Notes under the pieces: generated by a model
What the model was told of the DNA's origin: nothing
Databases searched by the model: none
The model's input: only the letters and a program-made list of their open reading frames with translations
Made by a program: the position numbers and the translations under genes
From: an uncultured Gammaproteobacteria bacterium
GTDB lineage: Bacteria > Patescibacteriota > Patescibacteriia > UBA9934 > GWF2-40-263
Assembly: GCA_964402425.1 (NCBI GenBank)
Contig: CAYOCD010000004.1
Span: 3,318-67,317 of the forward strand
Length of the DNA stretch: 64,000 nt
Direction: 5' to 3'
Shown here: piece by piece, positions 3,294 to 64,000 of the stretch
Layout of the letters: every line of letters starts with the position of its first letter
Numbering within the stretch: the stretch's first letter is position 1

Positions 3294-4003
3294 GTAGCTT
3301 TTTCACGCAATGTTTCCAAAACAGTTTCTCTTCGATCGATATCTGCAAGAATCTCCTCTGCATTTTTTGGCAACACCAAATTCTTTTTCTTAAACGCACA
3401 CGGTTCGCGAACCGGACACGCCCAACAACGCGGGGATCGGATACAAATATATCTTCCAAGTTTTACGAAGACTCGATTCACTGTTTGATGATACCGCGAC
3501 GGAACAAGATCGAGAAGTTTCTGCTCCGCTTCTTCAACTGTTTTCGATCGAACCCAGCCGAGTCGGTTCGTCACACGAAATACGTGCGTATCGACCGCAA
3601 TCGCGGTTTTATCGAACGAACACACAAGCACCACACTCGCCGTTTTTCGTCCGACACCTGCGAGCGTAACAAGCTCGTCCATCGTCGATGGAATCTTTCC
3701 GTCGAACTTTTCCACAACATCCGTCGCCATCTTTTTCAAATTCTTTGCTTTCTGTTTATACATTCCAATCGTGTTGATCTTCGATTCAATCTCGCTCGTC
3801 GTCGCCTTCGACAATTTCTCCACACTCGAAAACGCGTTCCAGAAACCCGGAAGCAACTTCAGAACCTGCTCATCTCGCGTCCGCGCCGACAACATCACAG
3901 CAACAAGATTCTGATACGGACTCCCAAGCTCCATCGCACCCGGATTTGGAAACTGTTTTTTGAGGATTTTAAGCGTGGAGATGATTTGATTCATAGTTGT
4001 CAT
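3290..4003 (-). CDS. nth: endonuclease III (HhH-GPD base-excision glycosylase with a 4Fe-4S cluster)
   Basis: HhH-GPD motif LVTLAGVGRKTASVV and C-X6-C-X2-C-X5-C (CIRSPRCWACPVREPC). The track start ATG is donated by the repeat-element end TGTCAT; the true start may be the internal MNQIIS. Confidence 0.9.
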   Translation of the reverse strand: MTTMNQIISTLKILKKQFPNPGAMELGSPYQNLVAVMLSARTRDEQVLKLLPGFWNAFSSVEKLSKATTSEIESKINTIGMYKQKAKNLKKMATDVVEKFDGKIPSTMDELVTLAGVGRKTASVVLVCSFDKTAIAVDTHVFRVTNRLGWVRSKTVEEAEQKLLDLVPSRYHQTVNRVFVKLGRYICIRSPRCWACPVREPCAFKKKNLVLPKNAEEILADIDRRETVLETLREKAT

Positions 4004-4091
4004 TGCGAGGAGTTCGACGACGAAGCAATCTTGTGTCGATCATGAGAGAAACGCAAAGACGGCTTCGCTTCGCTCGCAATGACACAATTCC

Positions 4092-5672: not shown

Positions 5673-5811
5673 ATTGTTTATTTTATAGTGTGTCACCCCA
5701 CACTTCAAAGCAGCCCCCCACGACCGCTACCTGTTTAGTCGAAGGATCTCACGTTGATCATGTGATTCGATGGAAAACTCGAGATTCTTCGCTTCGCTCA
5801 GAATGACACAA

Positions 5812-24390: not shown

Positions 24391-24503
24391 GAAGGCTATA
24401 AAGGCGACAAATGCGATAAAGGCTTCTGAAAACGTACATTCTTTTGCGTTTCCCTTCTGCCTTTATTGCCTTTATAGCCTCTATCGCTTCTATAGCCTCT
24501 TCA
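24391..24503. repeat. cluster of GGCTATAAAGGCGA / GCCTTTAT(C/T)GCC motif repeats in inverted arrangement (family 3)
   Basis: Units ggctataaaggcgac, gcgataaaggc, then inverted gcctttattgcc, cctttatagcctc, cttctatagcctc; they lie upstream of rplY. Confidence 0.7.
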
Positions 24504-29650: not shown

Positions 29651-29666
29651 TAAAGTTCTTTAATAA

Positions 29667-29766
29667 GGCCATAGAGGCAATAAAGGCGATAGATGCGATA
29701 AAGGCCGAAGGGGTACTAAGCGCATTCTAAAGCCTCTGTAGCCTTTATCGCCTCTCTAGCCTTCCC
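29667..29766. repeat. family 3 repeat cluster (GGCAATAAAGGCGATAGATGCGATAAAGGCC ... AGCCTCTGTAGCCTTTATCGCCTCTCTAGCC) in inverted arrangement
   Basis: Same motif family as 24391-24503; sits in the secE-nusG intergenic region. Confidence 0.7.
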
Positions 29767-30816: not shown

Positions 30817-30833
30817 TCTAAAAAAATATTCAT

Positions 30834-30874
30834 CGAGCTTGTCGAGATGCCGTAAAGGGTTCTCGACAAGCTCG
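30834..30874. repeat. perfect 14-bp hairpin CGAGCTTGTCGAGA-n13-TCTCGACAAGCTCG (repeat family 2; alternatively an L1 autoregulatory leader structure)
   Basis: Inverted repeat in the rplK-rplA intergenic region; the same arms recur at 60856-60905, 62345-62390, 63907-63920 and 42489-42506. Confidence 0.7.
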
Positions 30875-30931
30875 AACAATAAAAAATACGTGGGAGCATC
30901 TTCTTGATGCGTTCGTACCACACAAAACATT

Positions 30932-34318: not shown

Positions 34319-34337
34319 ACAATCTCCTTTATTATTC

Positions 34338-34440
34338 TGTCATCCTGAGGAAGTTCGACGACCGAAGGATCTCGCGTTTATAAGTGCTTTATTAACGCGA
34401 GATCCTTCGGCTAAACCTGAAACGGTCGCTCAGGATGACA
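34338..34440. mobile_element. MITE-like palindromic element, family 1 (TIRs TGTCATCCTGAGG / GCTCAGGATGACA)
   Basis: 103 nt with terminal inverted repeats and an internal palindrome gaaggatctcgcgtt...aacgcgagatccttc; it supplies the last codons and stop of folA. Confidence 0.8.
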
Positions 34441-34957
34441 CAGAGTAATGTAAAAGAACTGTTTGTTCGCCGAGCATTTTTGATTCAACGAGTTTGAGCT
34501 TAACATCTCCAAACGATTCCGCAAGCGAAATTCCCTCACCAAACAAAATAGGTTCAATGGTAAGAAAAACATCTGTCACGAGTTGCTCTCGAAGAAACGA
34601 AGAATACACAAAAGAGCCACCACCGATCACAACAGATGTGACTCCCTCTGATTCCAGTCGACGAATCAAATCCACAGGAGCCTCTTCGACAAACTCGAGT
34701 CTTGTTCCGTTTCCATCAGGCGGAACATTCTTTTCCTTCATGGAAGCGTCAAGCGTAAGTACGATCAGTCTTCGACCCTTAAGGGGTTTTCCGATCGTGT
34801 CGAATGTCCGCTGACCCATAATCACCGTCCCTGACTCTTTTGTTTTCTCGATAAAAAATGCCGTGTCTTCTTTTGAAGTCCATTCAAGCGAAGATTGATT
34901 TCGTGATTGTGCGATTTTGCCATTGAGAGATATGGCAGCGATAAGATTGATCTTCAT
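34430..34957 (-). CDS. folA: dihydrofolate reductase
   Basis: DHFR-fold family (MKINLIAAISLNGKIA...), overlaps thyA by 4 nt. Confidence 0.75.
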   Translation of the reverse strand: MKINLIAAISLNGKIAQSRNQSSLEWTSKEDTAFFIEKTKESGTVIMGQRTFDTIGKPLKGRRLIVLTLDASMKEKNVPPDGNGTRLEFVEEAPVDLIRRLESEGVTSVVIGGGSFVYSSFLREQLVTDVFLTIEPILFGEGISLAESFGDVKLKLVESKMLGEQTVLLHYSVSS

Positions 34958-41471: not shown

Positions 41472-41500
41472 TCTCCCCTTTGTGGAGACTTTTTTATTTC
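41472..41500. terminator. rho-independent terminator (gtctcccctttgtggagac followed by TTTTTTATTT)
   Basis: Stem plus T-run; convergent with the miaA end. Confidence 0.8.
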
Positions 41501-42450
41501 AAAAATAATTCAACGTGTTTAACAGCATCTTTTGGTTGCACCACCCACTCAATACGTTCATCTCGCTTAAACCACGTCATTTGTCGTTTAGCATAGTGTC
41601 GCGTATCTTTTTTTATTTCCTCAATCGCCTCTTTCAATGAAGATCGTCCTTCAAGAAATTCACAAACTTGTCGATAGCCGATTCCGGTCATGCTTTCAAT
41701 AGCACAACTATATTTCTGTTTAAGCGATCGCACTTCTGTTACAAGCTCATGTGCAATCATCTCATCTACACGATCATTGATACGCTCATACAAAACATTG
41801 CGCTCAACAGACAACCCAATTTGCAAAACGTTGTACTTCGAGACACCGCGTGTTTGTAATTGTGAAAATGGTTTGCCTGTGAGAAGTGTTACTTCGAGCG
41901 CGCGCACCAAACGACGTTTGTTGTCGCGATCAATTTGTTCCGCGCCAATCGGATCCAACTTTTTATATTCATGAAATAAATCTCCAAGAGATTTTTCTTC
42001 GAGCTCGGCTCGAAGCTTCTCATCTGCTGGCGTTGAAGAAAGATCGAGGTTATCGATCACGGCCGAAAGCCACAAACCTGTTCCACCAACAAGGATTGGC
42101 ACATGTTTACGCTTCACAATCTCCGCAATCTTTTTCTCTGCGTAGGCTTTAAATTGGGCGACAGAATAGTCTTGATCTGGATCAACAAGATCAATTCCCC
42201 AGTGCGGAACCCCTTCCACAAAAAACTCTTTACGGGCACCAAACAACTGATCGATGCGCCCACCCATCTCAATCTCTCCTATTTTCCATTCTCCTTCCGG
42301 CTTAGCTGTTCCAACATCCATCCCTTTATAAATCATCCGAGAATCCACAGAAATCACCTCGCCACCAAATTGTTTTGCAATCTCAATTCCAAGCGCAGTT
42401 TTCCCGCTCGCGGTTGGTCCCAAAATGGCGATGAGTTTTGGTAATGGCAT
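41494..42450 (-). CDS. miaA: tRNA dimethylallyltransferase
   Basis: P-loop GPTASGKT and full MiaA homology. The track ORF extends to 42534 through a family-2 repeat fragment; start chosen at MPLPKL. Confidence 0.9.
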   Translation of the reverse strand: MPLPKLIAILGPTASGKTALGIEIAKQFGGEVISVDSRMIYKGMDVGTAKPEGEWKIGEIEMGGRIDQLFGARKEFFVEGVPHWGIDLVDPDQDYSVAQFKAYAEKKIAEIVKRKHVPILVGGTGLWLSAVIDNLDLSSTPADEKLRAELEEKSLGDLFHEYKKLDPIGAEQIDRDNKRRLVRALEVTLLTGKPFSQLQTRGVSKYNVLQIGLSVERNVLYERINDRVDEMIAHELVTEVRSLKQKYSCAIESMTGIGYRQVCEFLEGRSSLKEAIEEIKKDTRHYAKRQMTWFKRDERIEWVVQPKDAVKHVELFLK

Positions 42451-42500
42451 ACGTTTATTTCTCGACCTTGTAGAGAGACTCTTGTAGGCTTTCGACAAGC

Positions 42501-43988
42501 TCAAGCAATAGATATTTGTCCTTCCAATATCCACGTTTCTGCTTTTGTTATTTTAACATTCACGATCTCTCCCACCAATTCTTTTCCCCCAACAAATGTC
42601 ACAAGTTTCATTTCGCGAGAGTTTCCAAAACACATTCCAGGCTGTTTCTTAAGCGTCTCTTGAATCTTTTCCGGCATCTTAAGCATTTCATCCGTAATCT
42701 TTGGCGCCTCATGTCTTTCGACAAGCACACTCACAATCTCGCCCACATACTGTTGATTTTTTTTACGTACAACATCTTCCATCACGGCTTGTAATTCATT
42801 CCAACGGCGTTTCTTTTCTTCTTGTGTGACATCATCTTTAAACGCACGCTTTGCCGCTGTGCCTGATCGTTCAGAATAGCGCGCATTGTAGCCGATATCG
42901 AATTTGATATCTCGATACATATCGATCGTCTTTTGAAATTGCTCTGGTGATTCGCCTGAGAATCCAACAATGATGTCCGTACCAATCGCGAGGTTTGGAA
43001 TTTTTGCTCGCAGTCGATCAACAACTTCATGAAACTGTTCGATGGTGTAACGACGATTCATGCGGCGAAGAACTTCATTGTCACCTGCCTGAACCGGAAG
43101 ATGAATAAAGTTTACGTGTGCAGGAAGCGTCATTGCATCAATCACTTCATCTGTCATGTGAAGCGGATGTGGTGCGGTAAAGTGTAGTCGTTTGATTTCT
43201 GGAATCTGGTTTACTTCCCAAAGCAATGCGGCAAAGTGGTTTTCTTTCTGGTCATTGCGAGGAGGAGTCATCGACGACGAAGCAATCTTCGCGTTCGCGG
43301 GGAAAGATTGCTTCGCTGCGCTCGCAATGACAAAAGGATTCCCCACCGAAAAATTCTCCGCATCAGGTGCAAGATAACTATTCACCGTTTGTCCAAGCAA
43401 TGTCACTTCAATACATCCATGTGCGGCAAGATCACGAACCTCATCGAGAATATCTTTCACAGATCGGTTCTTCTCAAGCCCACGCGCAAATGGAACAACA
43501 CAATACGTACAAAACTTATTGCATCCGGTCTGGATAGAGACAAACGCCTGACGAACAGATCGGCGCTCTGGATTAATTTTGAGATAGTCTTCAATCAAAT
43601 CCGTACTGTTCACAAGGTCAGGACGAAGTTCCCCAATCCATCGAGGCAACTGCCCCATATCTGCTGTTGGGAAATACAAATCCACACTCGGAATCTTTTT
43701 ACGAATCACACCATCGCGATCCCGCCCCGCCATGCAACCTGTAATACCAAGAATGAGCTTTGGATTTGTTTCCTTAAGCGCTTCGAATTCATGAACTTTT
43801 CCGAACACACGGTCTTCCGCCTGTTGGCGAACCGAGCATGTATTGATCAAAATCAAATCTGCCTCGGCCGGCATATCGGTCGACACAAACCCAAGCCCAT
43901 GAAGTAAAGCTTCCATGCGCTCCGAATCATTTTTGTTCATCTGACAACCAAATGTGAGGAGATGATATTTTGGTTTTGTATCCAACAT
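42501..43988 (-). CDS. miaB: tRNA-2-methylthio-N6-dimethylallyladenosine synthase (radical-SAM methylthiotransferase) carrying an in-frame repeat-element insertion
   Basis: MTTase N-domain LLTFGCQMN, radical-SAM CNKFCTYC, TRAM C-terminus. There are about 35 extra residues (…FVIASAAKQSFPANAKIASSSMTPPRND…) between the GQTVNSY motif and the next conserved block. Confidence 0.88.
   Translation of the reverse strand: MLDTKPKYHLLTFGCQMNKNDSERMEALLHGLGFVSTDMPAEADLILINTCSVRQQAEDRVFGKVHEFEALKETNPKLILGITGCMAGRDRDGVIRKKIPSVDLYFPTADMGQLPRWIGELRPDLVNSTDLIEDYLKINPERRSVRQAFVSIQTGCNKFCTYCVVPFARGLEKNRSVKDILDEVRDLAAHGCIEVTLLGQTVNSYLAPDAENFSVGNPFVIASAAKQSFPANAKIASSSMTPPRNDQKENHFAALLWEVNQIPEIKRLHFTAPHPLHMTDEVIDAMTLPAHVNFIHLPVQAGDNEVLRRMNRRYTIEQFHEVVDRLRAKIPNLAIGTDIIVGFSGESPEQFQKTIDMYRDIKFDIGYNARYSERSGTAAKRAFKDDVTQEEKKRRWNELQAVMEDVVRKKNQQYVGEIVSVLVERHEAPKITDEMLKMPEKIQETLKKQPGMCFGNSREMKLVTFVGGKELVGEIVNVKITKAETWILEGQISIA
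43251..43332. mobile_element. family 1 palindromic element copy (GTCATTGCGAGG ... GCTCGCAATGACA) inside the miaB reading frame
   Basis: Same TIRs and core as the intergenic copies; on the coding strand it translates in-frame to VIASAAKQSFPANAKIASSSMTPPRND. Confidence 0.8.
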
Positions 43989-44021: not shown

Positions 44022-44034
44022 TGTCATTGCGAAG
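44022..44034. repeat. solo family 1 TIR fragment (TGTCATTGCGAAG)
   Basis: Matches the element terminus; no partner end found nearby. Confidence 0.4.
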
Positions 44035-44099
44035 AACGAAACGGTAAAGTGATCTTTTAGACAAATCGACCAATAAAAAAGACCCCCGAGTAAGGAGTC

Positions 44100-45063: not shown

Positions 45064-45492
45064 TTACGAGGCTTGTGCACATGGATCTTTTGTTGATTCT
45101 GTGAGCATTGCACAGGCACAAACAAATAAAAGAACATATGCTCTGGATTTGGATTTTGTCAGTACGACCGAAGGAACGTGCTGATTGAGCGTCTGTAAAA
45201 AAAACAGGTTTGCAAACGATTGGCGAAGTTTTTCCTCAAACGAGAGATTACTCGACAATCGCCAAACAGACTCACGTTTTAAATCGCATCCCAATCTTTT
45301 GACAGATTCATCTGAGACAAAATGAGGCTGTTGGTTTGGTACATACGCCAACAACGCACAACTTAGCCATCTAGCAAACTCAAGGGTTCCGCCAAGAGCA
45401 ATCGTGCGCCGTTCTAAGTAATCTACAAAAGCGGGCGCAGCAGAAAAGTGTTTCAGATACTCTCGCCGCACAAGAGATGTCATCGTCCCCAT
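45064..45492 (-). CDS. hypothetical protein (about 140 aa) upstream of the 284-aa gene
   Basis: Co-directional with the 284-aa gene and likely co-transcribed with it; no family recognised. Confidence 0.4.
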   Translation of the reverse strand: MGTMTSLVRREYLKHFSAAPAFVDYLERRTIALGGTLEFARWLSCALLAYVPNQQPHFVSDESVKRLGCDLKRESVWRLSSNLSFEEKLRQSFANLFFLQTLNQHVPSVVLTKSKSRAYVLLFVCACAMLTESTKDPCAQAS

Positions 45493-45575
45493 GATAAACC
45501 CCCTTTGATAGGAACATCGCAGCTTAGCATGGTTTTTGAATTTGTCAACATATCATGCTCAACACCCATGAATTA

Positions 45576-45584
45576 TGGTATAAT
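45576..45584 (+). promoter_or_regulatory. extended -10 promoter TGgTATAAT for the 770-aa gene
   Basis: TGnTATAAT sits 29 nt upstream of the ATG at 45613. Confidence 0.5.
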
Positions 45585-45612
45585 TTTTACAATTCAATCT
45601 AAACACAACTTT

Positions 45613-47925
45613 ATGCCATCAAGCGCCCGACGAGAGCAAGGGGTATACGCTCCAGAACATGAAAACCTTGCTTCTGTTGAAGATCAAAATGCAAGTAAAG
45701 AGCTTGCAAAAATGCAAAAGAAACAAGAAAAAGAACAAACGGCAAACTACGACAAATTCGCTGAGGCGAGTGTTGCACAACTTTCACCAGAAGATCCAGA
45801 TAGAAAAAAAATCTTACAGATGTTTTCAGAACCTTCTGTCAAACAAGAGGTTTTAAAACGTGCCATGCAGATGATTGAAAAGAATCCAAATGCCCTGAAC
45901 GCAATCGTTCAGGAATTATTGGAAAATAAAGATGTTATTTCTGCAAAAATAAATGAACAAAAGAAATCCATCAGAAGTCTTAAAGGTGAAAAAGCCTACT
46001 GGACAGGACAACTGAATAAATTGCCAATGACATCTGAAATCGGTACCAAGATCAAACAAATCGGCAGAAACATCCGAGCCCTCGAACGACAAATTCGCAA
46101 TGTAGAAAAAACACCATTCGATATTGAAAGTAAACTCATAGATGGAACAACCATTTCTAGTTTAGAAGTGCTCCACGCACCAGCATCCAACAGAGACGAT
46201 GACGAAGAGTTTGATGCAGGATCAATGGATATAAAAGATGCAACCCCCGTTCCATTATCTGAAATGCGTGGCACTCCAACAATTCTTGCAACAGATGAGC
46301 TGTCAGATTCTGTAAGCAATAACGTGTTTGAAACGATTAACGAAATGCCAACAACATCAGAACTGAAAGCAGCAAAGGTGACAGACGAGGAACAAGACGT
46401 TGATTCTAGCAAACAAACAGCCATAGAAAAAACCAAGCTGAGCAAACCTTCTCTTTCTACATCTAGAGTAGAATCGATAACACTCCAAGAAGCGGCAATA
46501 GCCCGTGTGGCAGCACGTAGAGAAAATCAAACAAACCACGCACGTGAAATGGACACAATTGCACCACCTGATATCGCCGGTGCAGGAATGCAGCCTTCAA
46601 AAGGACAAGAACGTGTTGATATGCCGGTTATAACGCCGGACATGCTTGCGAATCCAGAAGCTGCTGAAAATGAACAAGCACGACTCTTTAAGGAATATCT
46701 AAGCACGCTCACAGATGAGGAACATGGCAGACAATGGATAAATCGTGATGAAAGTGGTTATGAAGCTTGGCTTAAACAAAGAAAAGCCGTCAATAATCCA
46801 ACAGATGCATCACAACGTCGTGTTGAGATGCCGGTAGTAACGCCAGACATGCTTGCAGATCAGTCAGACCAACAGCCACCCACTTCAGAAAACAACGTGC
46901 GTGAAATGCCGATCATAAAATCATCGTATGAAGCGCCACTCATTCAACGTGATGCAAACGTTGAGCGCACCCAATTTCTTGAACGTAAAGCAAATGTGGG
47001 AGGCGTAAAACTTGAGGTGTATAGAACAGATGGACAATACGTGATTGAACTTTCTGATGGCACAAAAGTCGATGTTGGGGACAACAAAGAATTCGCAGAA
47101 GAAATGTTCAATTTTGCAATGGTTCAAGCAGGTGTTCCAGAACTCAGAAACCCAAGCAAACTCGCAGAAGTTTTGGACTTTTATGTTGAAAAAGAACAAA
47201 ATACAAAGAATGATGTACGTGAGATGCCGATCATTCAACCAATAAGTCGTTTTGGGGACATGCCCAAGTTTGGTGAATGGATTGCGGGTGGAGAAAAACC
47301 AGGGGCGAAAGAACTCTCTATCGAAGAACACACCCAAAAAATCATGGATGAAAAAGCGGAAGCGGGCAAACCTTTTTCCTTCATAGATGCACAGAACCAA
47401 GCAAGAGCGGAAGGCTTAGGAGACCTGAAAAGAGAATTAGGAATCGATCGTCCGAAAGATGAAATGGTCGCTCCTGAGTTACCTCTCCCTGGATCTGAAT
47501 CATGGAACCAACCAGGCGCAGATCAAATGACACAAAATACAGAATTCTCACGTCAAATTGACACAATCGCTTCGGAAACTTCAACAATTGATCTCGCGCG
47601 AGAAATCGGAGATCCGATGCACACAGCAGAAACGATCGCGTTCAACAAAGCAATTTTCAACGGACTTTCTGCTGAAAATCGATTAAGTAACGGACTTCCG
47701 GCAACATGGGAAGAAGTTACAAATCCAAAAATTGGATTCCTTAGTCGTCTTACGGGCGGAAAAAATCGTACACGAAAAGATTTATTGGATAAAATCAATA
47801 AACTCCAAGGTCAATTTGTAACAACAGGAAAAGAAGGAGCAAGAACGGTAAGTAATGCAGCTGATACAGCAAGAACACGTACAGAAAAAGCCTATCAAGA
47901 CAAAGGACCACAAGGTTTGGTTTAA
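45613..47925 (+). CDS. large acidic hypothetical protein (770 aa) with internal R(V/E)(D/E)MP(V/I)(I/V)TPDMLA-like repeats
   Basis: Start chosen at MPSSARREQ. The repeats are QERVDMPVITPDMLANPEAAENEQ, QRRVEMPVVTPDMLADQSDQQ, NVREMPIIKSSYEAP, NDVREMPIIQPISRFGDMPKF and REMDTIAPPDIA. No TM or signal peptide; no family recognised. Confidence 0.65.
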   Translation: MPSSARREQGVYAPEHENLASVEDQNASKELAKMQKKQEKEQTANYDKFAEASVAQLSPEDPDRKKILQMFSEPSVKQEVLKRAMQMIEKNPNALNAIVQELLENKDVISAKINEQKKSIRSLKGEKAYWTGQLNKLPMTSEIGTKIKQIGRNIRALERQIRNVEKTPFDIESKLIDGTTISSLEVLHAPASNRDDDEEFDAGSMDIKDATPVPLSEMRGTPTILATDELSDSVSNNVFETINEMPTTSELKAAKVTDEEQDVDSSKQTAIEKTKLSKPSLSTSRVESITLQEAAIARVAARRENQTNHAREMDTIAPPDIAGAGMQPSKGQERVDMPVITPDMLANPEAAENEQARLFKEYLSTLTDEEHGRQWINRDESGYEAWLKQRKAVNNPTDASQRRVEMPVVTPDMLADQSDQQPPTSENNVREMPIIKSSYEAPLIQRDANVERTQFLERKANVGGVKLEVYRTDGQYVIELSDGTKVDVGDNKEFAEEMFNFAMVQAGVPELRNPSKLAEVLDFYVEKEQNTKNDVREMPIIQPISRFGDMPKFGEWIAGGEKPGAKELSIEEHTQKIMDEKAEAGKPFSFIDAQNQARAEGLGDLKRELGIDRPKDEMVAPELPLPGSESWNQPGADQMTQNTEFSRQIDTIASETSTIDLAREIGDPMHTAETIAFNKAIFNGLSAENRLSNGLPATWEEVTNPKIGFLSRLTGGKNRTRKDLLDKINKLQGQFVTTGKEGARTVSNAADTARTRTEKAYQDKGPQGLV

Positions 47926-47962
47926 ATAAAAAATACACCCACTTGGGTGTATTTTTTATTTA
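47926..47962. terminator. bidirectional terminator (aatacacccacttgggtgtatt)
   Basis: Stem with flanking A- and T-runs between convergent genes. Confidence 0.8.
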
Positions 47963-49705
47963 AACGATTGGAAACTTTGACGCATCAACAGCCTTTGCAA
48001 TAAGTTCGCTTGCGGCAATCATAATGTCTTCTGTTTGTCCGAAGACGTTTACTTTGAAGTCTCCCCCGTCCACTTCTTTCTGTCCGATCACGATCGTCCA
48101 TGGCACTTTCATGGTTGCAGCATCGCGAATTTTCTTTCCGACTTTCTCATTTGAGTCGTCGAGCTCGGCGCGTACTCCGGCTTCGACAAGCTCAGCCAGT
48201 ATTGTTTCCGCGAACGGAATGAATGCTTCACTTACAGTTGCGATGCGCACTTGCGCAGGTGCGAGCCAGAACGGAAAGGCACCGGCGTAATGTTCGATGA
48301 GAACTCCCATGAATCGTTCGACACTTCCGAGAATGGCGCGGTGAATCATGACTGGGCGCTTGATTTGGCCATCTGCATCATGGAACTCTAATTCAAAGCG
48401 CTCTGGAAGGTTAAAATCGAGCTGAACCGTTGCTAATTGCCAATCTCGTCCGATTGCATCTGTTGCAATAAAATCGATCTTTGGTCCATAAAACGCTGCT
48501 TCACCAACACCGAGTTCAAAGTCGCGACCAAGCTCGGTCAACATGTCTTTGAGTGCTGCCACCGCTTTTGTCCAAACCTCTGCCCCACCAAGATATTTCT
48601 CTGGATGTTCTGGATCATCGACGGATAAACGGATGCGAAGTGGCATGCCGAATGCTGCGTAAAATTTTGTGATGATGTCGTAGATCTTCAATACTTCTTC
48701 TTTCACTTGATCTGGGCGAGCAAATACGTGTGCATCGTCCTGTGTGATGGATCGAACACGTGTGAGGCCGGCGAGTTGTCCTGTGTTCTCATCGCGATAC
48801 ACCGTTGTTGCCTCCGCGAAGCGCAACGGCAAATCGCGATAGCTGCGCATCTTGGACGCATAAATTTGCGTGTGATGCGGACAATTCATTGGCTTTAAGA
48901 CAAATTGATCATCGGTCTTTTTACTTGTGACATGAAAAATATCGTCCGCAAATTTGTCCCAGTGACCAGATGTTTTGTAGAGATCGGATTTTGCGATGTG
49001 CGGAATCCACACACGAGAATATTTGTGCGGTTTCATGAGCGCAGTCACAAATCCGGTGAGTGCCTCACGCATGGCGGTTCCGCGCGGAGTGAACATCGGG
49101 AGTCCGGATCCGACGAGCGGTGAATAGGTAAAGAGTTCGAGCTCAGCTCCCAATTTGCGATGATCACGCTTCTTTGCTTCTTCAAGCATCAAAAGGTGCG
49201 CATCGAGTTCCTCTTTCGTTGCAAAAGCCAAACCGTAAATACGTGTCAGCATTTGATTCTTCTCATCTCCGCGCCAATACGCCCCTGCAACTTTCGACAA
49301 TTGAAACGACTCAGGATCCACATCAGAAATTCCTTCATCATGCCCACCACGACAAAGATCTTTAAATGAACCGGATTTGTAGAATGTAAGCGTTTGCCCT
49401 TCTCCAGAAAATTGTTCGATGAGTTCGAGCTTGTATGGATTTGATGAAAACACATTCTTTGCTTCATCCACAGAAACTTCTTCACGATCAAATTTATTCC
49501 ATGATGGAAGAATCTCTCTCATCTTTGTTTGAATCTTTGGAAGATCTTCTTCTGTGATTTGTTTTGAAAATTCGAAATCATAATAAAACCCATCATCAAT
49601 GGCTGGACCAATGGTGCGTTTGGTATCTGGCCAAAGCTCCATAACGGCTGCCGCAAGCAAGTGCGCAAGCGAATGCCTGCGATGTTCTAGTTGATCTTGT
49701 GTCAT
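47960..49705 (-). CDS. thrS: threonyl-tRNA synthetase
   Basis: Class II aaRS core plus anticodon-binding domain. The track start (49720, MTQT...) lies in the repeat TIR; the likely true start is MTQDQLEH at 49705. Confidence 0.9.
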   Translation of the reverse strand: MTQDQLEHRRHSLAHLLAAAVMELWPDTKRTIGPAIDDGFYYDFEFSKQITEEDLPKIQTKMREILPSWNKFDREEVSVDEAKNVFSSNPYKLELIEQFSGEGQTLTFYKSGSFKDLCRGGHDEGISDVDPESFQLSKVAGAYWRGDEKNQMLTRIYGLAFATKEELDAHLLMLEEAKKRDHRKLGAELELFTYSPLVGSGLPMFTPRGTAMREALTGFVTALMKPHKYSRVWIPHIAKSDLYKTSGHWDKFADDIFHVTSKKTDDQFVLKPMNCPHHTQIYASKMRSYRDLPLRFAEATTVYRDENTGQLAGLTRVRSITQDDAHVFARPDQVKEEVLKIYDIITKFYAAFGMPLRIRLSVDDPEHPEKYLGGAEVWTKAVAALKDMLTELGRDFELGVGEAAFYGPKIDFIATDAIGRDWQLATVQLDFNLPERFELEFHDADGQIKRPVMIHRAILGSVERFMGVLIEHYAGAFPFWLAPAQVRIATVSEAFIPFAETILAELVEAGVRAELDDSNEKVGKKIRDAATMKVPWTIVIGQKEVDGGDFKVNVFGQTEDIMIAASELIAKAVDASKFPIV

Positions 49706-49713
49706 ATGCGTTT

Positions 49714-49782
49714 GTGTCATCCTGAGCAGAGCGAAGGATCTCGTGTTAAAAGAAGAGATTCTTCACTGCGTTCAGAATGACA
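49714..49782. mobile_element. family 1 palindromic element (TGTCATCCTGAGC ... GTTCAGAATGACA)
   Basis: TIRs plus a cgaaggatctcgtgtt core; abuts the thrS start. Confidence 0.75.
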
Positions 49783-51305: not shown

Positions 51306-51435
51306 TGTATCATTGCAAGGAATTCGACGACAAAGCAATCTTTTTTCCGATATCTCGTGGCTTAAAATAAAAGAAGTCACAGACAAAGAAGCGCAAAGAT
51401 TGCTTCGTCGTCGATGACTCCTTCTCGCAATGACA
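51306..51435. mobile_element. family 1 palindromic element, long form (TGTATCATTGCAAGG ... CTCGCAATGACAC)
   Basis: 130 nt with an internal palindrome gaattcgacgacaaagcaatcttt...aaagattgcttcgtcgtcgatgac; sits between the dnaE stop and the next gene's start. Confidence 0.8.
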
Positions 51436-55879: not shown

Positions 55880-58273
55880 TTACATTCTCATGATACCACC
55901 AAAATCATTTTCAATCATCTTTTTTATTTTCTCCATCCACACATCCACCTCTTTTGATTCAAGTGTTCGATCTGCAGCACGGAATTCTACACGCACACCA
56001 AGAGATTTCTTTCCCGGATCAATGCCTTTTCCACGATACGTATCGAAGAGTTCAACAGAGACGATCGACGAATCGATTTTCTCGATTGCGCGCTCGATGC
56101 TTGCATATTCTGTGCGATCCGCAAGGACAAACGCGAGATCGCGTTTGACGGATGGAAACTGTGGAAGCGGAACAAATGTTTTTGCTGTTGAAAAATGTTC
56201 AAGGAGTGCTTCAAAATCAAGTTCAAGAATAATCACATTCACATCAAGACCAAATGAGAACTCAACAGAGCGACTCACTTGCCCGATCGTTCCGACTGGT
56301 TTGCTCTCGAGAAGCACGCGCGCCGAACGTCCGGCATGGAAGCGAGACGAATCGACAATGCGATCAAGTTCGATACCCGATACGCCCGTCTCATCAAAAA
56401 GACGCGTGAGAATTCCCTTTGCACGCAAGAATAATTTTTCTGCGTCCGCTTTTCCGTAAACCGCAACGACAAGTCGAAGCGGCTGTTCTGGAAGTTCGTT
56501 AGCGCGTGGAAGATACACCGGCGCGATTTCAAACAAATCCGCTTCCGGAAACACGGCTTGATTCTCGACGATATTCGTCAGCATCGTTGGGACAAGCGAT
56601 GGGCGCATGTACGCCTGGTCGATGCTGAGTGGATTTTTTAAGTGAATTGCATCCTCCGTTTTAAATCCATAATTCGCAAGCTGCTTCTCGGAAACGAAAC
56701 TATAACTATATGTTTCAACAAGCCCCGCACCTTTCAACAATTCCTTTACGCGTGCTTGCCAGACCAATGCACGATCAGACTCGCGAACAGGCGGCGCGCC
56801 GAGTGGAAGGACAGATGGAAAACGATCGTATCCATACACACGAGCAATCTCTTCGACAAAGTCGACCGAAGCCTCAATGTCATGATCGCGCCAGTACGGA
56901 ACGGTGATGTTGTAAGTGTCGCGATGTTTTTTCGCATCGAATCCTAAACGCTCGAGCGTCGCAATCATTTCATCTGCTTCCATTTCAATCCCCATCAAAG
57001 CATTTGCTTTTGTTGGATCGAACGGAAACACACGAGGCTCATACTCGTTTGCTTCAATCATCTCGACAGACGAAACAGCTTTTGGAAATGCAATTTCAGA
57101 CACAAGTTCAATCGCGCGCGCGATTGCAGCGTCTGTGCTCTGCGTCGAGAGCCCCTTCTCGAAGAGCAGCTGCGAATCTGAATACAAGTTCAATGCACGC
57201 GCAGTTCGGCGAACAGACACCGGATTAAACGTTGCAGACTCAATAATAATATTTGTGGTCGATTCCGTCGCACCAGTTTCCTCGCCTCCCATAACTCCCG
57301 CAATCGCGACGGGTTTCGTTGCGTCCGCAATCACAAGCATGTCGGATGTAAGTTTGTACTCTTTTCCATCGAGCGCTTTCATCACTTCCCCTTCAGCTGC
57401 GCGACGAACAACAATCACGCCACCGTCGAGCTTATCCGCATCAAACACATGCAACGGATGTCCGTACTCGTGCAAAACGTAATTTGTAATATCGACAACA
57501 TTGTTGATCGGTTTCAATCCCGCAAGAATCAACTTCTTTTGCAACCACCAAGGTGATGGACCAACGGTAATTCCCTCAAGACGCACGGCGGAATATTTTG
57601 GACAGAGTTCCTTGTCGAGAACACTCACGCGAGGAGCAGGAATCATTCCTTTCCAACCTTTCAAGCTCTTTAATTCTCTGAGTGAACTTCCAACAACGGC
57701 AGCACCTTCTCGAGCTTGACCGATAACAGACATACAGTCCGGACGGTTCGATGTGACTTCAATATCCATCACAACGTCGTCGAGATCAAGCGCCTTCGCG
57801 AGTGAAGTTCCAGCTGGCGCATCTGTGAGTTCTGTCAGATCCCAAATTTCTTTTTCTGCGTGTGGAATCGTCTCGAAACCAACTTCATCCACTCCGCAAA
57901 TCATTCCAAAACTTTTCACGCCACGAAGTGTAGATTCGGTAATCTCAACAAGATCCCCTTCTCCGTGCCAGCGCACTTTCGCGCCTGGCAACGCGACCAC
58001 AACTTTGTGGCCTTCAATCAAGTTTGATCCCCCACACACAATCTCCACAACCGTCTCACCAATATTTACTTCGCACACACGAAGCTTATCCGCATTTGGA
58101 TGCGGCTTCACAACGTTAATCTCGCCGACAACAATATGTGCAAGCATCTTTGCATAATCATGCATGCGCTCCACAGAGTTCCCGGAGTTCGTCGTCTTCT
58201 GCGCAAATTCCTCCACGGTTAAATCCATGTCGAGATATTCTTTGAGCCAATTATAGGAAATGAGGATGTTCAT
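55880..58273 (-). CDS. pheT: phenylalanyl-tRNA synthetase beta subunit
   Basis: MNILISYNWLKEY canonical start, B3/4, B5 and anticodon-binding domains. The track start (58294, MTQEANV) is donated by the repeat TIR. Confidence 0.93.
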   Translation of the reverse strand: MNILISYNWLKEYLDMDLTVEEFAQKTTNSGNSVERMHDYAKMLAHIVVGEINVVKPHPNADKLRVCEVNIGETVVEIVCGGSNLIEGHKVVVALPGAKVRWHGEGDLVEITESTLRGVKSFGMICGVDEVGFETIPHAEKEIWDLTELTDAPAGTSLAKALDLDDVVMDIEVTSNRPDCMSVIGQAREGAAVVGSSLRELKSLKGWKGMIPAPRVSVLDKELCPKYSAVRLEGITVGPSPWWLQKKLILAGLKPINNVVDITNYVLHEYGHPLHVFDADKLDGGVIVVRRAAEGEVMKALDGKEYKLTSDMLVIADATKPVAIAGVMGGEETGATESTTNIIIESATFNPVSVRRTARALNLYSDSQLLFEKGLSTQSTDAAIARAIELVSEIAFPKAVSSVEMIEANEYEPRVFPFDPTKANALMGIEMEADEMIATLERLGFDAKKHRDTYNITVPYWRDHDIEASVDFVEEIARVYGYDRFPSVLPLGAPPVRESDRALVWQARVKELLKGAGLVETYSYSFVSEKQLANYGFKTEDAIHLKNPLSIDQAYMRPSLVPTMLTNIVENQAVFPEADLFEIAPVYLPRANELPEQPLRLVVAVYGKADAEKLFLRAKGILTRLFDETGVSGIELDRIVDSSRFHAGRSARVLLESKPVGTIGQVSRSVEFSFGLDVNVIILELDFEALLEHFSTAKTFVPLPQFPSVKRDLAFVLADRTEYASIERAIEKIDSSIVSVELFDTYRGKGIDPGKKSLGVRVEFRAADRTLESKEVDVWMEKIKKMIENDFGGIMRM

Positions 58274-58286
58274 AACATTTGCTTCT

Positions 58287-58659
58287 TGTGTCATCTCGAG
58301 CGGAGCCGAGAGATCTCACGTTTATAAGTCCATTGCCAAATCCTTTCGTTCTGGATTTATTTCATCAATCAAAAACTCTTTCTTCGCGCGATTCCATTTC
58401 TTTAATTGCTTCTCACGTTCAAGTGCTGAAACCACTTCATTCGTCTGTTCGTAATATACGAGTTTGTTGCAGTTATACTTCGCTGTAAATCCTTCGATCA
58501 TCTTCTCTTTATGTTCAAACACTCTTCTCTGAAGATTATTTGTGACACCGATGTACAAAACCGTATTAACAGGATTAGACATGATGTAAATGAAGTAAGA
58601 ACGTTCGGACATATAAATGTGAGATCCCTCGGCTGCGCTGCGCTTCGCTCGGGATGACA
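58287..58659. mobile_element. composite family 1 element carrying a GIY-YIG nuclease ORF (TIRs TGTGTCATCTCGAGC ... GCTCGGGATGACA), inserted between pheS and pheT
   Basis: The same TIR and core sequences as the short copies (…gagatctcacgtttataag … gagatccctcggctgcgctgcgcttcgctcgggatgaca) bracket a GIY-YIG ORF. Confidence 0.75.
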
Positions 58660-58660
58660 C
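58322..58660 (-). CDS. GIY-YIG nuclease family protein (COG2827/UPF0213-like)
   Basis: YIGVTNNLQRRVFEH GIY-YIG motif. The N-terminal 16 aa (MSSRAKRSAAEGSHIY) are translated from the element TIR; the likely real start is MSERSYFIYIM at about 58612. Confidence 0.8.
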   Translation of the reverse strand: MSSRAKRSAAEGSHIYMSERSYFIYIMSNPVNTVLYIGVTNNLQRRVFEHKEKMIEGFTAKYNCNKLVYYEQTNEVVSALEREKQLKKWNRAKKEFLIDEINPERKDLAMDL

Positions 58661-62071: not shown

Positions 62072-62329
62072 TCACATGCTTTTCAAAAACGTTGCGATCA
62101 AATCCATTTTTTCGATACGCGACAAACATTTCATCTTCGCCTCCGCCTTTAACGCAGTCGAACGATCACGATACTTCTTTGAATAAACAAGCCTCACAGG
62201 CCGACGAGCGCGAGTGTATTTTGCTCCCCGATCGGATGTGTTGTGTTCAAGAATACGACGATCAAGATCTGTGGTGATGCCGGTATAGAGCGTTTGGTCG
62301 GTACACTCAAGGATGTAGAGAAAATACAT
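62072..62329 (-). CDS. GIY-YIG nuclease family protein (COG2827/UPF0213)
   Basis: YILECTDQTLYTGITTDLDRRILEHN GIY-YIG motif; 85 aa. Confidence 0.8.
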   Translation of the reverse strand: MYFLYILECTDQTLYTGITTDLDRRILEHNTSDRGAKYTRARRPVRLVYSKKYRDRSTALKAEAKMKCLSRIEKMDLIATFLKSM

Positions 62330-62344
62330 ATGCCGTTACTCACT

Positions 62345-62390
62345 GAGCTTGTCGAAGTGCCATAATACATCACAGACCTTCGACAACCTC
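62345..62390. repeat. family 2 hairpin repeat (gagcttgtcgaag-n20-cttcgacaacctc)
   Basis: The arms match the other family 2 copies; it is immediately adjacent to the second GIY-YIG gene. Confidence 0.6.
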
Positions 62391-63886: not shown

Positions 63887-64000
63887 AATTCCTATTAATA
63901 TTGTTTGAGCTTGTCGAAAACCCATATTAAACTTCTATTCAGATCTTACACGGAACAACGCACTTGTGCATCTTCTCGCATCTGTTATCATTCCCCTACA

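What the first reader, a model, noticed from the sequence alone, without database searches (positions are those of the whole stretch)
43251..43332. In-frame insertion of the palindromic element inside miaB, adding about 30-35 residues to a radical-SAM tRNA methylthiotransferase
The miaB ORF stays open across a copy of the family 1 element. On the coding strand the copy translates to VIASAAKQSFPANAKIASSSMTPPRND. It lies between the conserved GQTVNSY motif and the next conserved block, where canonical MiaB proteins have only about 10 residues. This parallels Rickettsia palindromic elements that insert in-frame into essential genes. Either MiaB tolerates a surface loop encoded by a selfish element, or the gene is functionally compromised.
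Basis: partly seen in the sequence, partly recalled or inferred. Interest (0 to 1): 0.8.

Follow-up and report, generated by a model that had tools for sequence, protein, structure and literature searches.

The report
Selfish hairpin repeat inside miaB gene
An 81-base palindromic repeat has landed in frame inside the essential-type tRNA-modification gene miaB of an uncultured Uhrbacteria bacterium. The same two-codon spot of this gene has collected different such repeats again and again in related species. The repeats belong with a newly described class of small single-strand DNA nucleases (Ssn).

Summary
Window 43251-43331 is an 81-nt imperfect palindrome lying in frame and stop-free inside a 495-aa MiaB ORF (42501-43988, minus strand).

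- **Recent insertion, not a native loop.** The nearest orthologs (93-95% aa identity) lack it and read NPY|QNHF. Its arms are 88-95% identical to intergenic copies in the same window.
- **Not an assembly artefact.** Two other metagenome assemblies carry identical DNA.
- **Gene looks functional.** All six cluster cysteines are present. Pairwise dN/dS is 0.03-0.05. An AlphaFold model places the insert as a disordered loop between two confident secondary-structure elements.

Two points go beyond the finding.

- **Hot spot.** About one fifth of close Uhrbacteria MiaB clusters carry unrelated inserts at this same junction. The tree implies about 19 gain or loss events.
- **Ssn link.** The repeats are inverted pairs of GTCAT arms. 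The same arms flank a 96-aa GIY-YIG gene in the window that is 49% identical to the NTS-flanked Neisseria gonorrhoeae Ssn homolog.

This is a Rickettsia-palindromic-element-like phenomenon in a CPR bacterium, tied to Ssn-related repeats. Mobilisation by Ssn and site targeting are inferred, not shown.

The parts
42501..43988 (-). miaB ORF, 495 aa, encoding tRNA i6A37 methylthiotransferase. The auxiliary-cluster Cys are C15, C51 and C85. The radical-SAM Cys are C156, C160 and C163.
   Evidence: ORF listing. Pfam UPF0004, Radical_SAM and TRAM. Matches PDB MiaB 7MJZ at E=3.5e-74. Best fold matches are MiaB structures. Cysteines are invariant in alignment A1.
43251..43331 (-). 81-nt palindromic repeat inserted in frame. 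It encodes MiaB residues 220-246 (VIASAAKQSFPANAKIASSSMTPPRND).
   Evidence: Absent from the nearest orthologs L081 and L082.
43303..43331 (-). 5' arm on the coding strand, short type: GTCATTGCGAGCGCAGCGAAGCAATCT.
   Evidence: nhmmer arm model, E=8.8e-08. Matches the published SRM pattern with 2 mismatches.
43251..43292 (+). 3' arm on the coding strand, long type. Read on the + strand it is GTCATTGCGAGGAGGAGTCATCGACGACGAAGCAATCT.
   Evidence: 95% complementary to 51392-51434. nhmmer E=1.4e-4.
43242..43250 (-). Junction codons Q-K-E after the repeat. Six of these nine bases are extra relative to empty orthologs, and their origin is unclear. No target-site duplication can be recognised.
   Evidence: Comparison of filled and empty sites. 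Similar K/E/Q-rich extra codons occur in L001, L083 and L166.
41494..42450 (-). miaA (tRNA isopentenyltransferase) immediately downstream. It makes the i6A substrate of MiaB.
   Evidence: ORF. The syntenic gene in L081 and L084 carries PF01715 IPPT. L084 is 100% identical to the window.
3998..4084 (.). Intergenic copy of the same repeat family (GTCATTGCGAG arms).
51309..51435 (.). Intergenic copy of the same family. It is the closest relative of the long arm of the miaB copy.
49715..49782 (.). Intergenic copy of the sister sub-family (GTCATCCTGAGC...GAAGGATCTC arms).
34335..34442 (.). Intergenic copy of the sister sub-family.
5690..5808 (.). Intergenic copy of the sister sub-family, with one degenerate arm.
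58288..58660 (-). Repeat arm, then GIY-YIG gene, then repeat arm. The arms are 58288-58321 and 58620-58660, in inverted orientation, enclosing ORF 58322-58612.
58322..58612 (-). 96-aa single-domain GIY-YIG nuclease, an Ssn-family homolog.
   Evidence: Pfam PF01541, E=1e-16. 49% identity over 89 ungapped residues to the N. gonorrhoeae homolog, which is flanked by exact NTS repeats.
44022..44040 (+). Weak solo arm (GTCATTGCGAAG...) just upstream of the miaB start.
   Evidence: 1 mismatch. nhmmer E=0.48, so weak.

Best explanation
A short non-autonomous hairpin repeat was inserted into miaB. It consists of two inverted 'GTCAT...ATCT' arms around a 14-nt centre. The insertion point is the two-residue linker between the conserved NPY motif and the next helix of the radical-SAM domain. 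The event happened after this lineage split from its closest sampled relatives. The insertion adds 87 nt (29 codons) without a stop. It is therefore transcribed and translated as part of MiaB, where it forms a flexible loop that the enzyme tolerates. The repeat belongs to a family dispersed through this genome: seven pair-type copies in 64 kb, six of them intergenic. The arms of this family also flank a 96-aa GIY-YIG gene homologous to Neisseria SsnA, a hairpin-specific single-strand DNA nuclease. The most likely source of mobility is therefore cleavage and re-joining of the single-stranded hairpin form by this Ssn-type nuclease acting in trans, analogous to REP repeats and their RAYT transposases. 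The same junction of miaB carries unrelated inserts in many other Uhrbacteria. The simplest reading is that hairpin repeats hit genes often, and this is the one place in MiaB where an in-frame insert survives selection.

Shown here: the insertion, its family membership, its absence from close orthologs, its recurrence at the site, and the Ssn homology. Inferred: translation, tolerance, mobilisation by Ssn, and the reason for the hot spot.
For: - **Insertion and family.**
- **Empty site.** The nearest orthologs read GGGAATCCGTAT|CAAAACCAT (L081) and GAGAATTCTTAT|CAAAATCAT (L082).
- **Timing.** dS to those orthologs is 0.74-1.2, while the repeat arms are 95% identical to another copy in the genome. 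This suggests the insertion is younger than the split.
- **Assembly support.** DNA is identical in two other assemblies, L084 and L085.
- **Function retained.** Domain architecture and cysteines are intact. Pairwise dN/dS is 0.03-0.05. The window's terminal branch has 39 synonymous and 16 non-synonymous changes.
- **Structure.** In the AlphaFold model, residues 222-247 have pLDDT below 50, while the flanking blocks score 90 and 93. The fold matches MiaB 7MJZ. No terminator-like site lies at the repeat.
- **In-frame retention.** All 8 species-representative genomes with at least 13 extra residues at this junction have them in frame and stop-free.
- **Hot spot.** 22 of 117 close protein clusters carry inserts. 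The neighbour-joining tree with parsimony gives 19 changes and an empty root. 9 of about 21 internal insertions of 6 or more aa across 73 MiaB sequences lie at this junction. A scan with the element's terminal 11-mer put 7 independent element hits inside miaB, all at this site, against 1 convincing hit in other ORFs across 829 kb.
- **Ssn link.** See, and Chenal et al. 2025 (PMC11893778).
Against: - No expression, proteomic or activity data exist, so translation and tolerance are inferred.
- The window branch has a somewhat higher non-synonymous share (16 of 55) than its relatives (1-6 of 18-53). That would fit mild relaxation of selection.
The insert lies in a strand-to-helix connection, which in radical-SAM barrels is on the catalytic face.
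- The arms do not match the published SRM search pattern exactly: 0 hits in the window.
- No target-site duplication or clean junction can be reconstructed.
- Ssn proteins have been shown to cut ssDNA, not to transpose anything (PMC11893778).
Confidence: 0.75

Rival explanations
1. The hot spot reflects targeting, not only tolerance. The Ssn-type system, or whatever moves these hairpins, integrates preferentially at this miaB sequence in one orientation. That would make the site a homing-like 'safe harbour' inside a conserved gene.
For: All element-derived inserts in miaB lie at one junction. All four full elements have the short arm 5' on the coding strand, and about 12 solo-arm inserts keep only the 3' arm, read ...[RQH][ND]D. 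The arms are stop-free in all frames, so stops do not force this polarity. The residue after NPY is I or V in 19 of 25 inserts. miaB is enriched about 16-fold over other coding DNA in the same loci. NTS recognition by SsnA is strand-specific (PMC11893778).
Against: Unrelated insert types also sit there: 9-nt tandem repeats in P0002 and P0003, and other hairpin families in L002 and L054. That fits a permissive site better than one nuclease's specificity. The target codons (AAYCCNTAY AAR GAY) do not differ visibly between filled and empty orthologs. The intergenic copies share no flank resembling the miaB site. The insert-bearing tips are not statistically independent.
Confidence: 0.25
2. An ancient insertion at this junction in an Uhrbacteria ancestor has since been lost precisely in most lineages and remodelled in others through internal deletion or replacement by recombination with other copies. 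On this view the pattern is mostly loss, not repeated gain.
For: Many inserts are half elements of 12-16 aa with the same polarity and frame, which looks like decay products. WIN and L004 (70% aa identity) both carry the same long arm in the same orientation. Palindromes are prone to slippage deletion, which is general knowledge.
Against: The parsimony root is empty and 95 of 117 clusters have the canonical 31-residue spacing. Outgroup Patescibacteria also have 31-32 residues. At least five non-homologous insert types are present, which requires several gains anyway. The window's copy is 95% identical to another genomic copy, although dS to empty relatives is 0.74.
Confidence: 0.15
3. The insertion has inactivated or crippled MiaB, and the gene is on its way to becoming a pseudogene.
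For: The insert sits in the radical-SAM core domain, in a strand-to-helix connection next to highly conserved motifs. The non-synonymous share on the window branch is slightly raised. CPR genomes are known to lose functions.
Against: There is no frameshift or stop and all catalytic cysteines are kept. dN/dS is far below 1. miaA is retained next to it. Dozens of orthologs keep in-frame inserts, some evidently old and decayed in multiples of three, which requires continued selection for the reading frame.
Confidence: 0.08
4. The extra 29 residues are a native lineage-specific loop, or the stretch is an assembly chimera.
For: Uhrbacteria MiaB does have one genuine clade-specific 21-residue segment elsewhere (PPKITDEMLxMPEKIQE, consensus position 403). 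Repeats can also mislead assemblers.
Against: The position-403 segment is conserved in sequence across the clade, whereas hot-spot inserts differ between sister sequences. The insert shows nucleotide identity to intergenic repeats. The sequence is identical in three assemblies. Comparable inserts occur in independent genomes.
Confidence: 0.02

Closest known systems
Rickettsia palindromic elements (RPE; Ogata et al. 2000, as summarised in PMC10969869)
   Same: Both are short palindromic repeats dispersed in a small genome of a host-dependent bacterium. In both, copies are inserted in frame in housekeeping genes, translated as extra peptide segments, and apparently compatible with protein fold.
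   Different: RPEs are about 100-150 bp, occur in Rickettsia, and have no identified mobilising enzyme. Here the element is 81 nt, the host is a CPR (Uhrbacteria) bacterium, and only 1 of 7 pair-type copies in the window is genic. The same codon junction is hit repeatedly by different families in different species. Sequence relatedness to RPE consensus sequences was not tested. Chenal et al. list Rickettsia among genomes with more than 300 Ssn-related motifs, so a deeper link is possible.
Ssn nucleases and their NTS/SRM hairpin repeats (Chenal et al. 2025, Nat Commun, PMC11893778)
   Same: The window has a single-domain GIY-YIG protein of about 95 aa that is 49% identical to the gonococcal homolog. 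Its gene is flanked on both sides by repeats that start with GTCAT and end with ATC. The repeats are multi-copy and mostly intergenic. In Neisseria they also occur as inverted pairs of about 109 nt.
   Different: The CPR arms fail the published SRM pattern, being 2 mismatches off. Each arm alone forms at best a weak hairpin, and the strong hairpin comes from the arm pair. NTS repeats are rarely in genes (2%), and in-frame insertions or hot spots were not reported. The proposed Neisseria role, modulating transformation, need not apply here.
REP/BIME repeats with RAYT (IS200/IS605-like) transposases
   Same: Both involve hairpin repeats dispersed intergenically, with a small nuclease gene itself flanked by the repeats. 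Both plausibly use single-strand DNA chemistry.
   Different: The enzyme class differs: an HUH Y1 transposase there, a GIY-YIG nuclease here. REPs are extragenic by definition.
Bacterial MITEs (Correia, ERIC, Nezha and others)
   Same: Both are short, have terminal inverted repeats, lack coding capacity and are multi-copy. MITEs occasionally form in-frame fusions (PMC10969869).
   Different: No DDE-transposase parent and no recognisable target-site duplication were found here.

Membership tests
MiaB (tRNA-i6A37 methylthiotransferase) | UPF0004 N-terminal domain, radical-SAM core and TRAM domain | tested here: met
   Pfam E-values are 7.7e-26, 2.5e-26 and 3.1e-07. PDB MiaB 7MJZ matches at E=3.5e-74. 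The top fold hits are MiaB.
MiaB (tRNA-i6A37 methylthiotransferase) | Three Cys for the auxiliary cluster and CxxxCxxC for the radical-SAM cluster | tested here: met
   C15, C51, C85, C156, C160 and C163 are present. C51, C85, C156, C160 and C163 are invariant in A1.
MiaB (tRNA-i6A37 methylthiotransferase) | ms2i6A-forming activity | not testable with these tools
   Only context is available: miaA lies directly downstream.
Rickettsia palindromic elements (RPE) | Palindromic multi-copy repeat found in frame inside protein-coding genes | tested here: met
Rickettsia palindromic elements (RPE) | Sequence homology to RPE-1 to RPE-10 consensus sequences; Rickettsia host | not tested
The host here is Candidatus Uhrbacteria, so it is not a member in the taxonomic sense.
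Ssn-related motif (SRM/NTS) repeats | Match to HGTCWYN(0-2)YYVSBRHN(0-5)WNVSBRGN(0-2)RNCYNB | tested here: not met
   There are 0 exact matches in the window. As a positive control, the same script finds 8 in the gonococcal locus. The arms match with 2 mismatches, but at that stringency the window total (50) is not above chance (57.8).
Ssn-related motif (SRM/NTS) repeats | Repeats flank an ssn homolog on both sides | tested here: met
   Seen in the window at 58288-58660 and in L042 at 5546-5821, in both of the two close homologs available.
Ssn-related motif (SRM/NTS) repeats | Many copies per genome, mostly intergenic | tested here: met
   The window holds 7 paired copies and 2 solo arms in 64 kb, and only the miaB copy is genic. 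The whole-genome count is unknown.
Ssn nuclease family (cd10448) | Single-domain GIY-YIG protein of about 90-100 aa | tested here: met
   The protein is 96 aa and PF01541 covers residues 6-78.
Ssn nuclease family (cd10448) | Homology to Neisseria SsnA (the paper's criterion is tblastn E<1e-10) | tested here: met
   tblastn E=3e-21 to N. gonorrhoeae. BLASTP gives 49% identity over 89 aa with no gaps, E=2e-31. That gene is flanked by exact NTS repeats. The Y/Y/E spacing (Y9, Y20, E67) equals that of Nm SsnA (Y6, Y17, E64).
Ssn nuclease family (cd10448) | CDD cd10448 assignment; site-specific ssDNA cleavage next to its repeat | not testable with these tools
   CDD was not available, and the activity needs biochemistry.
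MITE | Terminal inverted repeats and target-site duplication | tested here: inconclusive
   TIRs are clear. No duplication could be identified at the miaB junctions or at intergenic copies. The nearest empty site is too diverged (dS 0.74).
Intein or intron | Self-splicing domain or ribozyme; no requirement for the reading frame | tested here: not met
   No Rfam family was found in the window. The insert is 27 codons with no intein-sized domain. All 8 inserts of at least 13 residues in unbiased genomes are in frame, which argues for read-through translation.

The most novel reading that the evidence does not exclude
Ssn-type GIY-YIG nucleases and their hairpin repeats are true mobile elements. 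In Uhrbacteria they integrate in a strand- and site-specific way at one codon junction of miaB. This would be a homing-like 'safe harbour' inside a conserved gene that works without an intron or intein, because the payload is simply translated as a loop. It would give Ssn repeats a transposition mechanism and a defined natural target, and might unify them with Rickettsia palindromic elements.
Probability: 0.2. Interest if true: 0.8.

Novelty: new variant of a known kind. Interest (0 to 1): 0.6.

Why it matters
In-frame selfish palindromes in housekeeping genes have been a Rickettsia curiosity for 25 years, with no known enzyme behind them. This case extends the phenomenon to the Candidate Phyla Radiation. 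It also links the repeats, by sequence and gene architecture, to the recently described Ssn single-strand nucleases. Finally, it offers a natural experiment: one defined junction in one conserved enzyme has accepted many independent inserts. That makes two open questions directly testable. How do such hairpin repeats move? How much foreign peptide can a radical-SAM core tolerate? It also matters for annotation, because repeat-derived peptides such as VIASEAKQS, RLLRxARND and CHPERSEGS inflate and distort CPR protein families.

Tried and rejected
1. **Rfam scan of the whole window.** No family was found.
2. **Exact SRM pattern.** It gave 0 hits. Relaxing to 1-2 mismatches is uninformative, because the counts equal chance.
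3. **Gapless-arm and blastn-short palindrome scans of all loci.** They were too insensitive and missed even the window's own copies. I replaced them with a terminal 11-mer scan.
4. **Arm HMM on other genomes.** The nhmmer model built from this window finds few copies elsewhere because arms diverge by lineage.
5. **Metagenome scan for closer relatives.** It returned only orthologs of 76% identity or less, so the empty site could not be reconstructed at near-identity. DNA for the P0008/P0010 sister pair was unavailable.
6. **Insert peptide against 1.84 billion representative proteins.** There was one hit, P0121, a spurious 'protein' that is a translated tandem array of the same kind of repeat. 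No other host proteins were found at this sensitivity.
7. **MiaB structure paper.** It was not in the library and model coordinates are not exposed. The distance from the insert to the Fe-S clusters and the tRNA could therefore not be measured.
8. **Target mimicry.** I looked for a resemblance between the target (GAAGGGAATCC) and the arm ends. Filled and empty orthologs do not differ there, so I dropped the idea.
9. **NCBIfam and PDB sequence searches with the GIY-YIG protein.** They gave nothing specific.
Full report
**1. The observation**

The window carries a 495-aa ORF on the minus strand (42501-43988). It has the three MiaB domains: UPF0004, Radical_SAM and TRAM. It matches the solved Bacteroides uniformis MiaB structure 7MJZ at E=3.5e-74. 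Homologs identify the organism as a Candidatus Uhrbacteria bacterium, a member of the Patescibacteria or CPR.

Bases 43251-43331 (81 nt) are an imperfect palindrome. The RNA fold is -39.3 kcal/mol (z = -5.8) and the DNA fold is -25.1 kcal/mol (z = -5.65). None of 200 shuffles folds as well in either case.

The palindrome belongs to a repeat family.
- One arm is 95% complementary to 51392-51434.
- The other arm is 88-92% identical to 4055-4087.
- An alignment with the intergenic copies shows conserved arms and a variable centre. The miaB copy has the shortest centre.

**2. Is it an insertion?**

Yes. In an alignment of 27 orthologs, the closest relatives read ...NPY|QNHF... with nothing in between. 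These are P0007 (95% aa identity), P0004 (93%), P0005, P0006, P0010 and P0011. I fetched their DNA.
- Empty sites: GGGAATCCGTAT|CAAAACCAT (L081) and GAGAATTCTTAT|CAAAATCAT (L082).
- Filled site in the window: GGGAATCCTTTT-[81-nt palindrome]-CAGAAAGAAAACCAC.

The net gain is 87 nt, or 29 codons. The usual spacing from GQTVNSY to LLWE is 31 residues in 61 of 72 species-representative Patescibacteria genomes and in 95 of 117 close protein clusters.

It is not met.

The sequence is not an assembly artefact. Two contigs from other JGI metagenomes (3300034120 and 3300044645) are 100% identical to the window over 4165 and 1637 bases, including the repeat.

**3. Is the gene still a gene?**

Several lines say it is.
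- All six cluster-binding cysteines are present.
- Pairwise dN/dS against five relatives is 0.03-0.05.
- The window's own branch has 39 synonymous and 16 non-synonymous changes. That is a somewhat higher non-synonymous share than in its relatives, but far from neutral.
- dS to the nearest empty ortholog is 0.74, while the repeat is 95% identical to another copy in the same genome. The insertion is therefore probably much younger than the split.
- miaA lies directly downstream, as in the relatives.

An AlphaFold2 model (mean pLDDT 78.9) gives pLDDT below 50 for residues 222-247. The preceding NPF-containing segment scores about 90 and the following helix 251-260 scores about 93. The strand before the insert is 194-198. 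The model's best structural matches are the MiaB crystal structures.

The insert is thus modelled as a disordered excursion from a two-residue linker between two well-defined elements of the radical-SAM domain. I could not obtain coordinates, so its distance from the clusters and the tRNA path is not measured. No terminator-like site coincides with the hairpin.

The element is stop-free in 3 of 6 frames. An in-frame, open insertion is therefore roughly a one-in-six outcome of a random hit. That is unremarkable once selection removes the rest.

**4. The junction is a hot spot**

This was not part of the finding. Inserts at exactly this junction occur in other Uhrbacteria, and their sequences are unrelated between sister lineages. 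Examples:
- IVSSRPTEGGGEILSGTREIPRLVDDLPAGRQGSSLGMTQKKR (L001)
- VSLCHPERSEGSRVDIDVSHARDSSVVELPQNDT... (P0009, L166)
- ISVRHPDDRRDLPTEAEMRGRSLAALEMTQ... (P0008)
- a compound 50-residue insert (L011)
- many 12-16-residue pieces such as ISRLLRSARNDKE

At the DNA level these are palindromic repeats with GTCAT...ATGAC ends, or single arms of them.

The counts are as follows.
- 22 of 117 close clusters carry an insert.
- 8 of 72 species representatives carry at least 13 extra residues, all in frame.
- A neighbour-joining tree built without the insert region places insert-bearing sequences next to empty ones: P0008 with P0010, P0009 with P0011, and P0003 with P0007. Parsimony needs 19 changes from an empty root.
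- Among 73 MiaB sequences, 9 of about 21 internal insertions of 6 or more residues fall at this junction.

The only other recurrent position (consensus position 403) is a genuine clade-specific 21-residue segment that is conserved in sequence. It is a useful contrast for what a native loop looks like.

A scan of 829 kb of unbiased loci with the element's terminal 11-mer gave these results.
- 29 intergenic hits.
- 7 independent element hits inside miaB, all at the hot spot.
- 1 convincing hit in any other ORF: a solo arm in frame in gatB of L057.

**5. What the repeat is**

Each element is an inverted pair of arms of the form (T)GTCAT-YYY-GAGCG-n-AGCGAAG-nnATCT. There are two sub-families in the window, GTCATTGCGAG... 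and GTCATCCTGAGC.... An arm model finds seven paired copies (3998-4084, 5690-5808, 34335-34442, 43251-43331, 49715-49782, 51309-51435 and 58288-58660) and two weak solo arms. Only the miaB copy is inside a gene.

The copy at 58288-58660 encloses a 96-aa ORF with a GIY-YIG domain (PF01541, E=1e-16). A 57%-identical homolog in another Uhrbacteria genome (L042) is enclosed in the same way.

A literature search led to Chenal et al. 2025 (PMC11893778). They describe Ssn, a family of single-domain GIY-YIG nucleases of about 94 aa.
- Ssn proteins cut single-stranded DNA next to a hairpin repeat. In Neisseria this is NTS (CGTCATTCCCGCGMAVGCGGGAATCYRG). More generally the repeats are called Ssn-related motifs, or SRM.
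- ssn genes are typically flanked by those repeats.
- The authors note the resemblance to insertion sequences and to REP/RAYT systems.
- They list Rickettsia and Wolbachia among SRM-rich genomes.
- They report that NTS repeats are rarely inside genes, 2% of them.

By chance, the plasmid collection holds gonococcal chromosomes. The window's protein hits one at E=3e-21. BLASTP gives 49% identity over 89 ungapped residues. That gene is surrounded by exact NTS repeats, several of them as inverted pairs of about 109 nt. This is the same architecture as the CPR palindromes.

The window's ORF is therefore an Ssn-family homolog, and the repeats are its cognate-type repeats in design. However, they do not satisfy the published SRM search pattern. 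There are 0 exact hits, and arms are two mismatches away at a stringency that is not above chance. I therefore describe them as Ssn-associated, SRM-like repeats, not as SRM members.

**6. Mechanism**

- **Shown:** insertion of a resident repeat into a coding linker, retention of frame, and recurrence at this site.
- **Inferred with good support:** the insert is translated and tolerated as a loop.
- **Inferred with moderate support:** the repeats are moved in trans by the Ssn-type nuclease acting on the single-stranded hairpin form. No transposition activity has been demonstrated for any Ssn.

For the hot spot I favour a selection filter. Insertions are frequent, and this is the one permissive place in MiaB. 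The reason is that unrelated insert types also sit there: 9-nt tandem repeats in P0002 and P0003, and other hairpin families in L002 and L054.

Three observations are not explained by that view and keep a targeting model alive.
- Every full element in miaB has the same polarity, and about a dozen half elements all retain the same arm in the same frame.
- The residue after NPY is I or V in 19 of 25 inserts.
- 2-7 extra K/E/Q/R-rich codons always separate the ATGAC end from the resumption of MiaB. No target-site duplication is visible.

An ancient insertion followed by many precise losses is a third possibility. It is less parsimonious given empty outgroups and at least five non-homologous insert types.

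**7. Comparison with known systems, and verdict**

Functionally this works like the Rickettsia palindromic elements: in-frame selfish palindromes in housekeeping genes (PMC10969869). It is not a member of that family by host, and its sequence relation to RPE was not tested. It is linked to the Ssn system by protein homology and gene architecture, but it fails the strict motif definition. It resembles REP/RAYT in logic and MITEs in form, but has neither a Y1 or DDE enzyme nor a visible target-site duplication.

I found no report of such repeats in CPR proteins, or of a recurrent in-frame insertion site. The library is incomplete, so this absence is weak evidence.

I rate it a new variant of a known kind, of moderate to high interest (0.6). 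The finding itself is correct. The added value lies in the hot spot and the Ssn connection, both of which are directly testable.

Noticed in passing
window 58288-58660: A 96-aa GIY-YIG ORF (58322-58612, minus strand) is enclosed by inverted arms of the same repeat superfamily. It is 49% identical to the NTS-flanked N. gonorrhoeae Ssn homolog, so it is a likely Ssn-family ssDNA nuclease in a CPR genome.
   Followed up: yes
window 62096-62326; also 30827-30881, 42456-42510, 62337-62365, 63899-63927: A second, distant GIY-YIG-like ORF (32% identity to the first) is flanked by a different palindrome family (…CTCGACAAGCTCGAAC…). A copy of that family also sits between the miaB stop and the miaA start. 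This may be a second nuclease/repeat pair.
   Followed up: partly
window 4001-4003, 49718-49720, 58292-58294, 34955-34957: The repeat terminus TGTCAT reads ATGACA on the other strand. It supplies the first ATG of the longest ORF of the adjacent genes: the gene at 3290-4003 starts MTTMNQ, the gene at 47960-49720 (thrS-like, by my reading of the translation) starts MTQTHMTQ, the gene at 55880-58294 (pheT-like, same basis) starts MTQEANVMNIL, and the ORF at 34430-34957 is also affected. These are probably annotation-extending artefacts, or possibly donated start codons.
   Followed up: no
L057 163-195 (gatB): A solo arm, CGTCATCCTGAGCATCGCGAAGGATCC, lies in frame inside a GatB ortholog (…HQVRHPEHREGSPAQKGG ITLVDFNRAGTPLME…). 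It is the only convincing in-gene copy outside miaB in 829 kb of related loci.
   Followed up: partly
L083 (P0003) and P0002, at the miaB hot spot; window 24393-24423 and 29666-29705: Two close orthologs carry 9-nt tandem repeats (GTGACAAAG-like, VTKATEVTK…) at the same junction instead of a palindrome. Similar 9-nt repeats (GGCGATAAA-like) occur elsewhere in the window.
   Followed up: no
P0121 (439 aa, from the representative protein library): This 'protein' is a translated tandem array of the same kind of repeat (VIASEARQSIP…CHGLRPRNDA, repeated about 12 times). It shows that such repeats can form long arrays that gene callers turn into ORFs.
   Followed up: partly
P0008 and P0010 (JGI sample 3300059473): A filled and an empty miaB allele from sister lineages (about 88% aa identity to each other's clade) come from the same metagenome sample. 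DNA was not retrievable.
   Followed up: no
MiaB residues about 428-448 (window about 42645-42707): A 21-residue segment, PPKITDEMLxMPEKIQE, is specific to and conserved within the Uhrbacteria clade. It lies between the radical-SAM and TRAM domains and is a true native insertion, unlike the hot-spot inserts.
   Followed up: partly
L168 (NZ_CP119142.1): The PLSDB plasmid collection holds 2.17-Mb Neisseria gonorrhoeae chromosomes labelled as plasmids. This was useful here but is a database mislabel.
   Followed up: no
window 45448-47925: An 825-aa ORF with no recognised domains contains internal direct repeats (46605/46812 and 46886/47204, encoding …VEMPVVTPDMLA… and …NVREMPII…). It lies two ORFs upstream of miaB and was not examined.
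   Followed up: no
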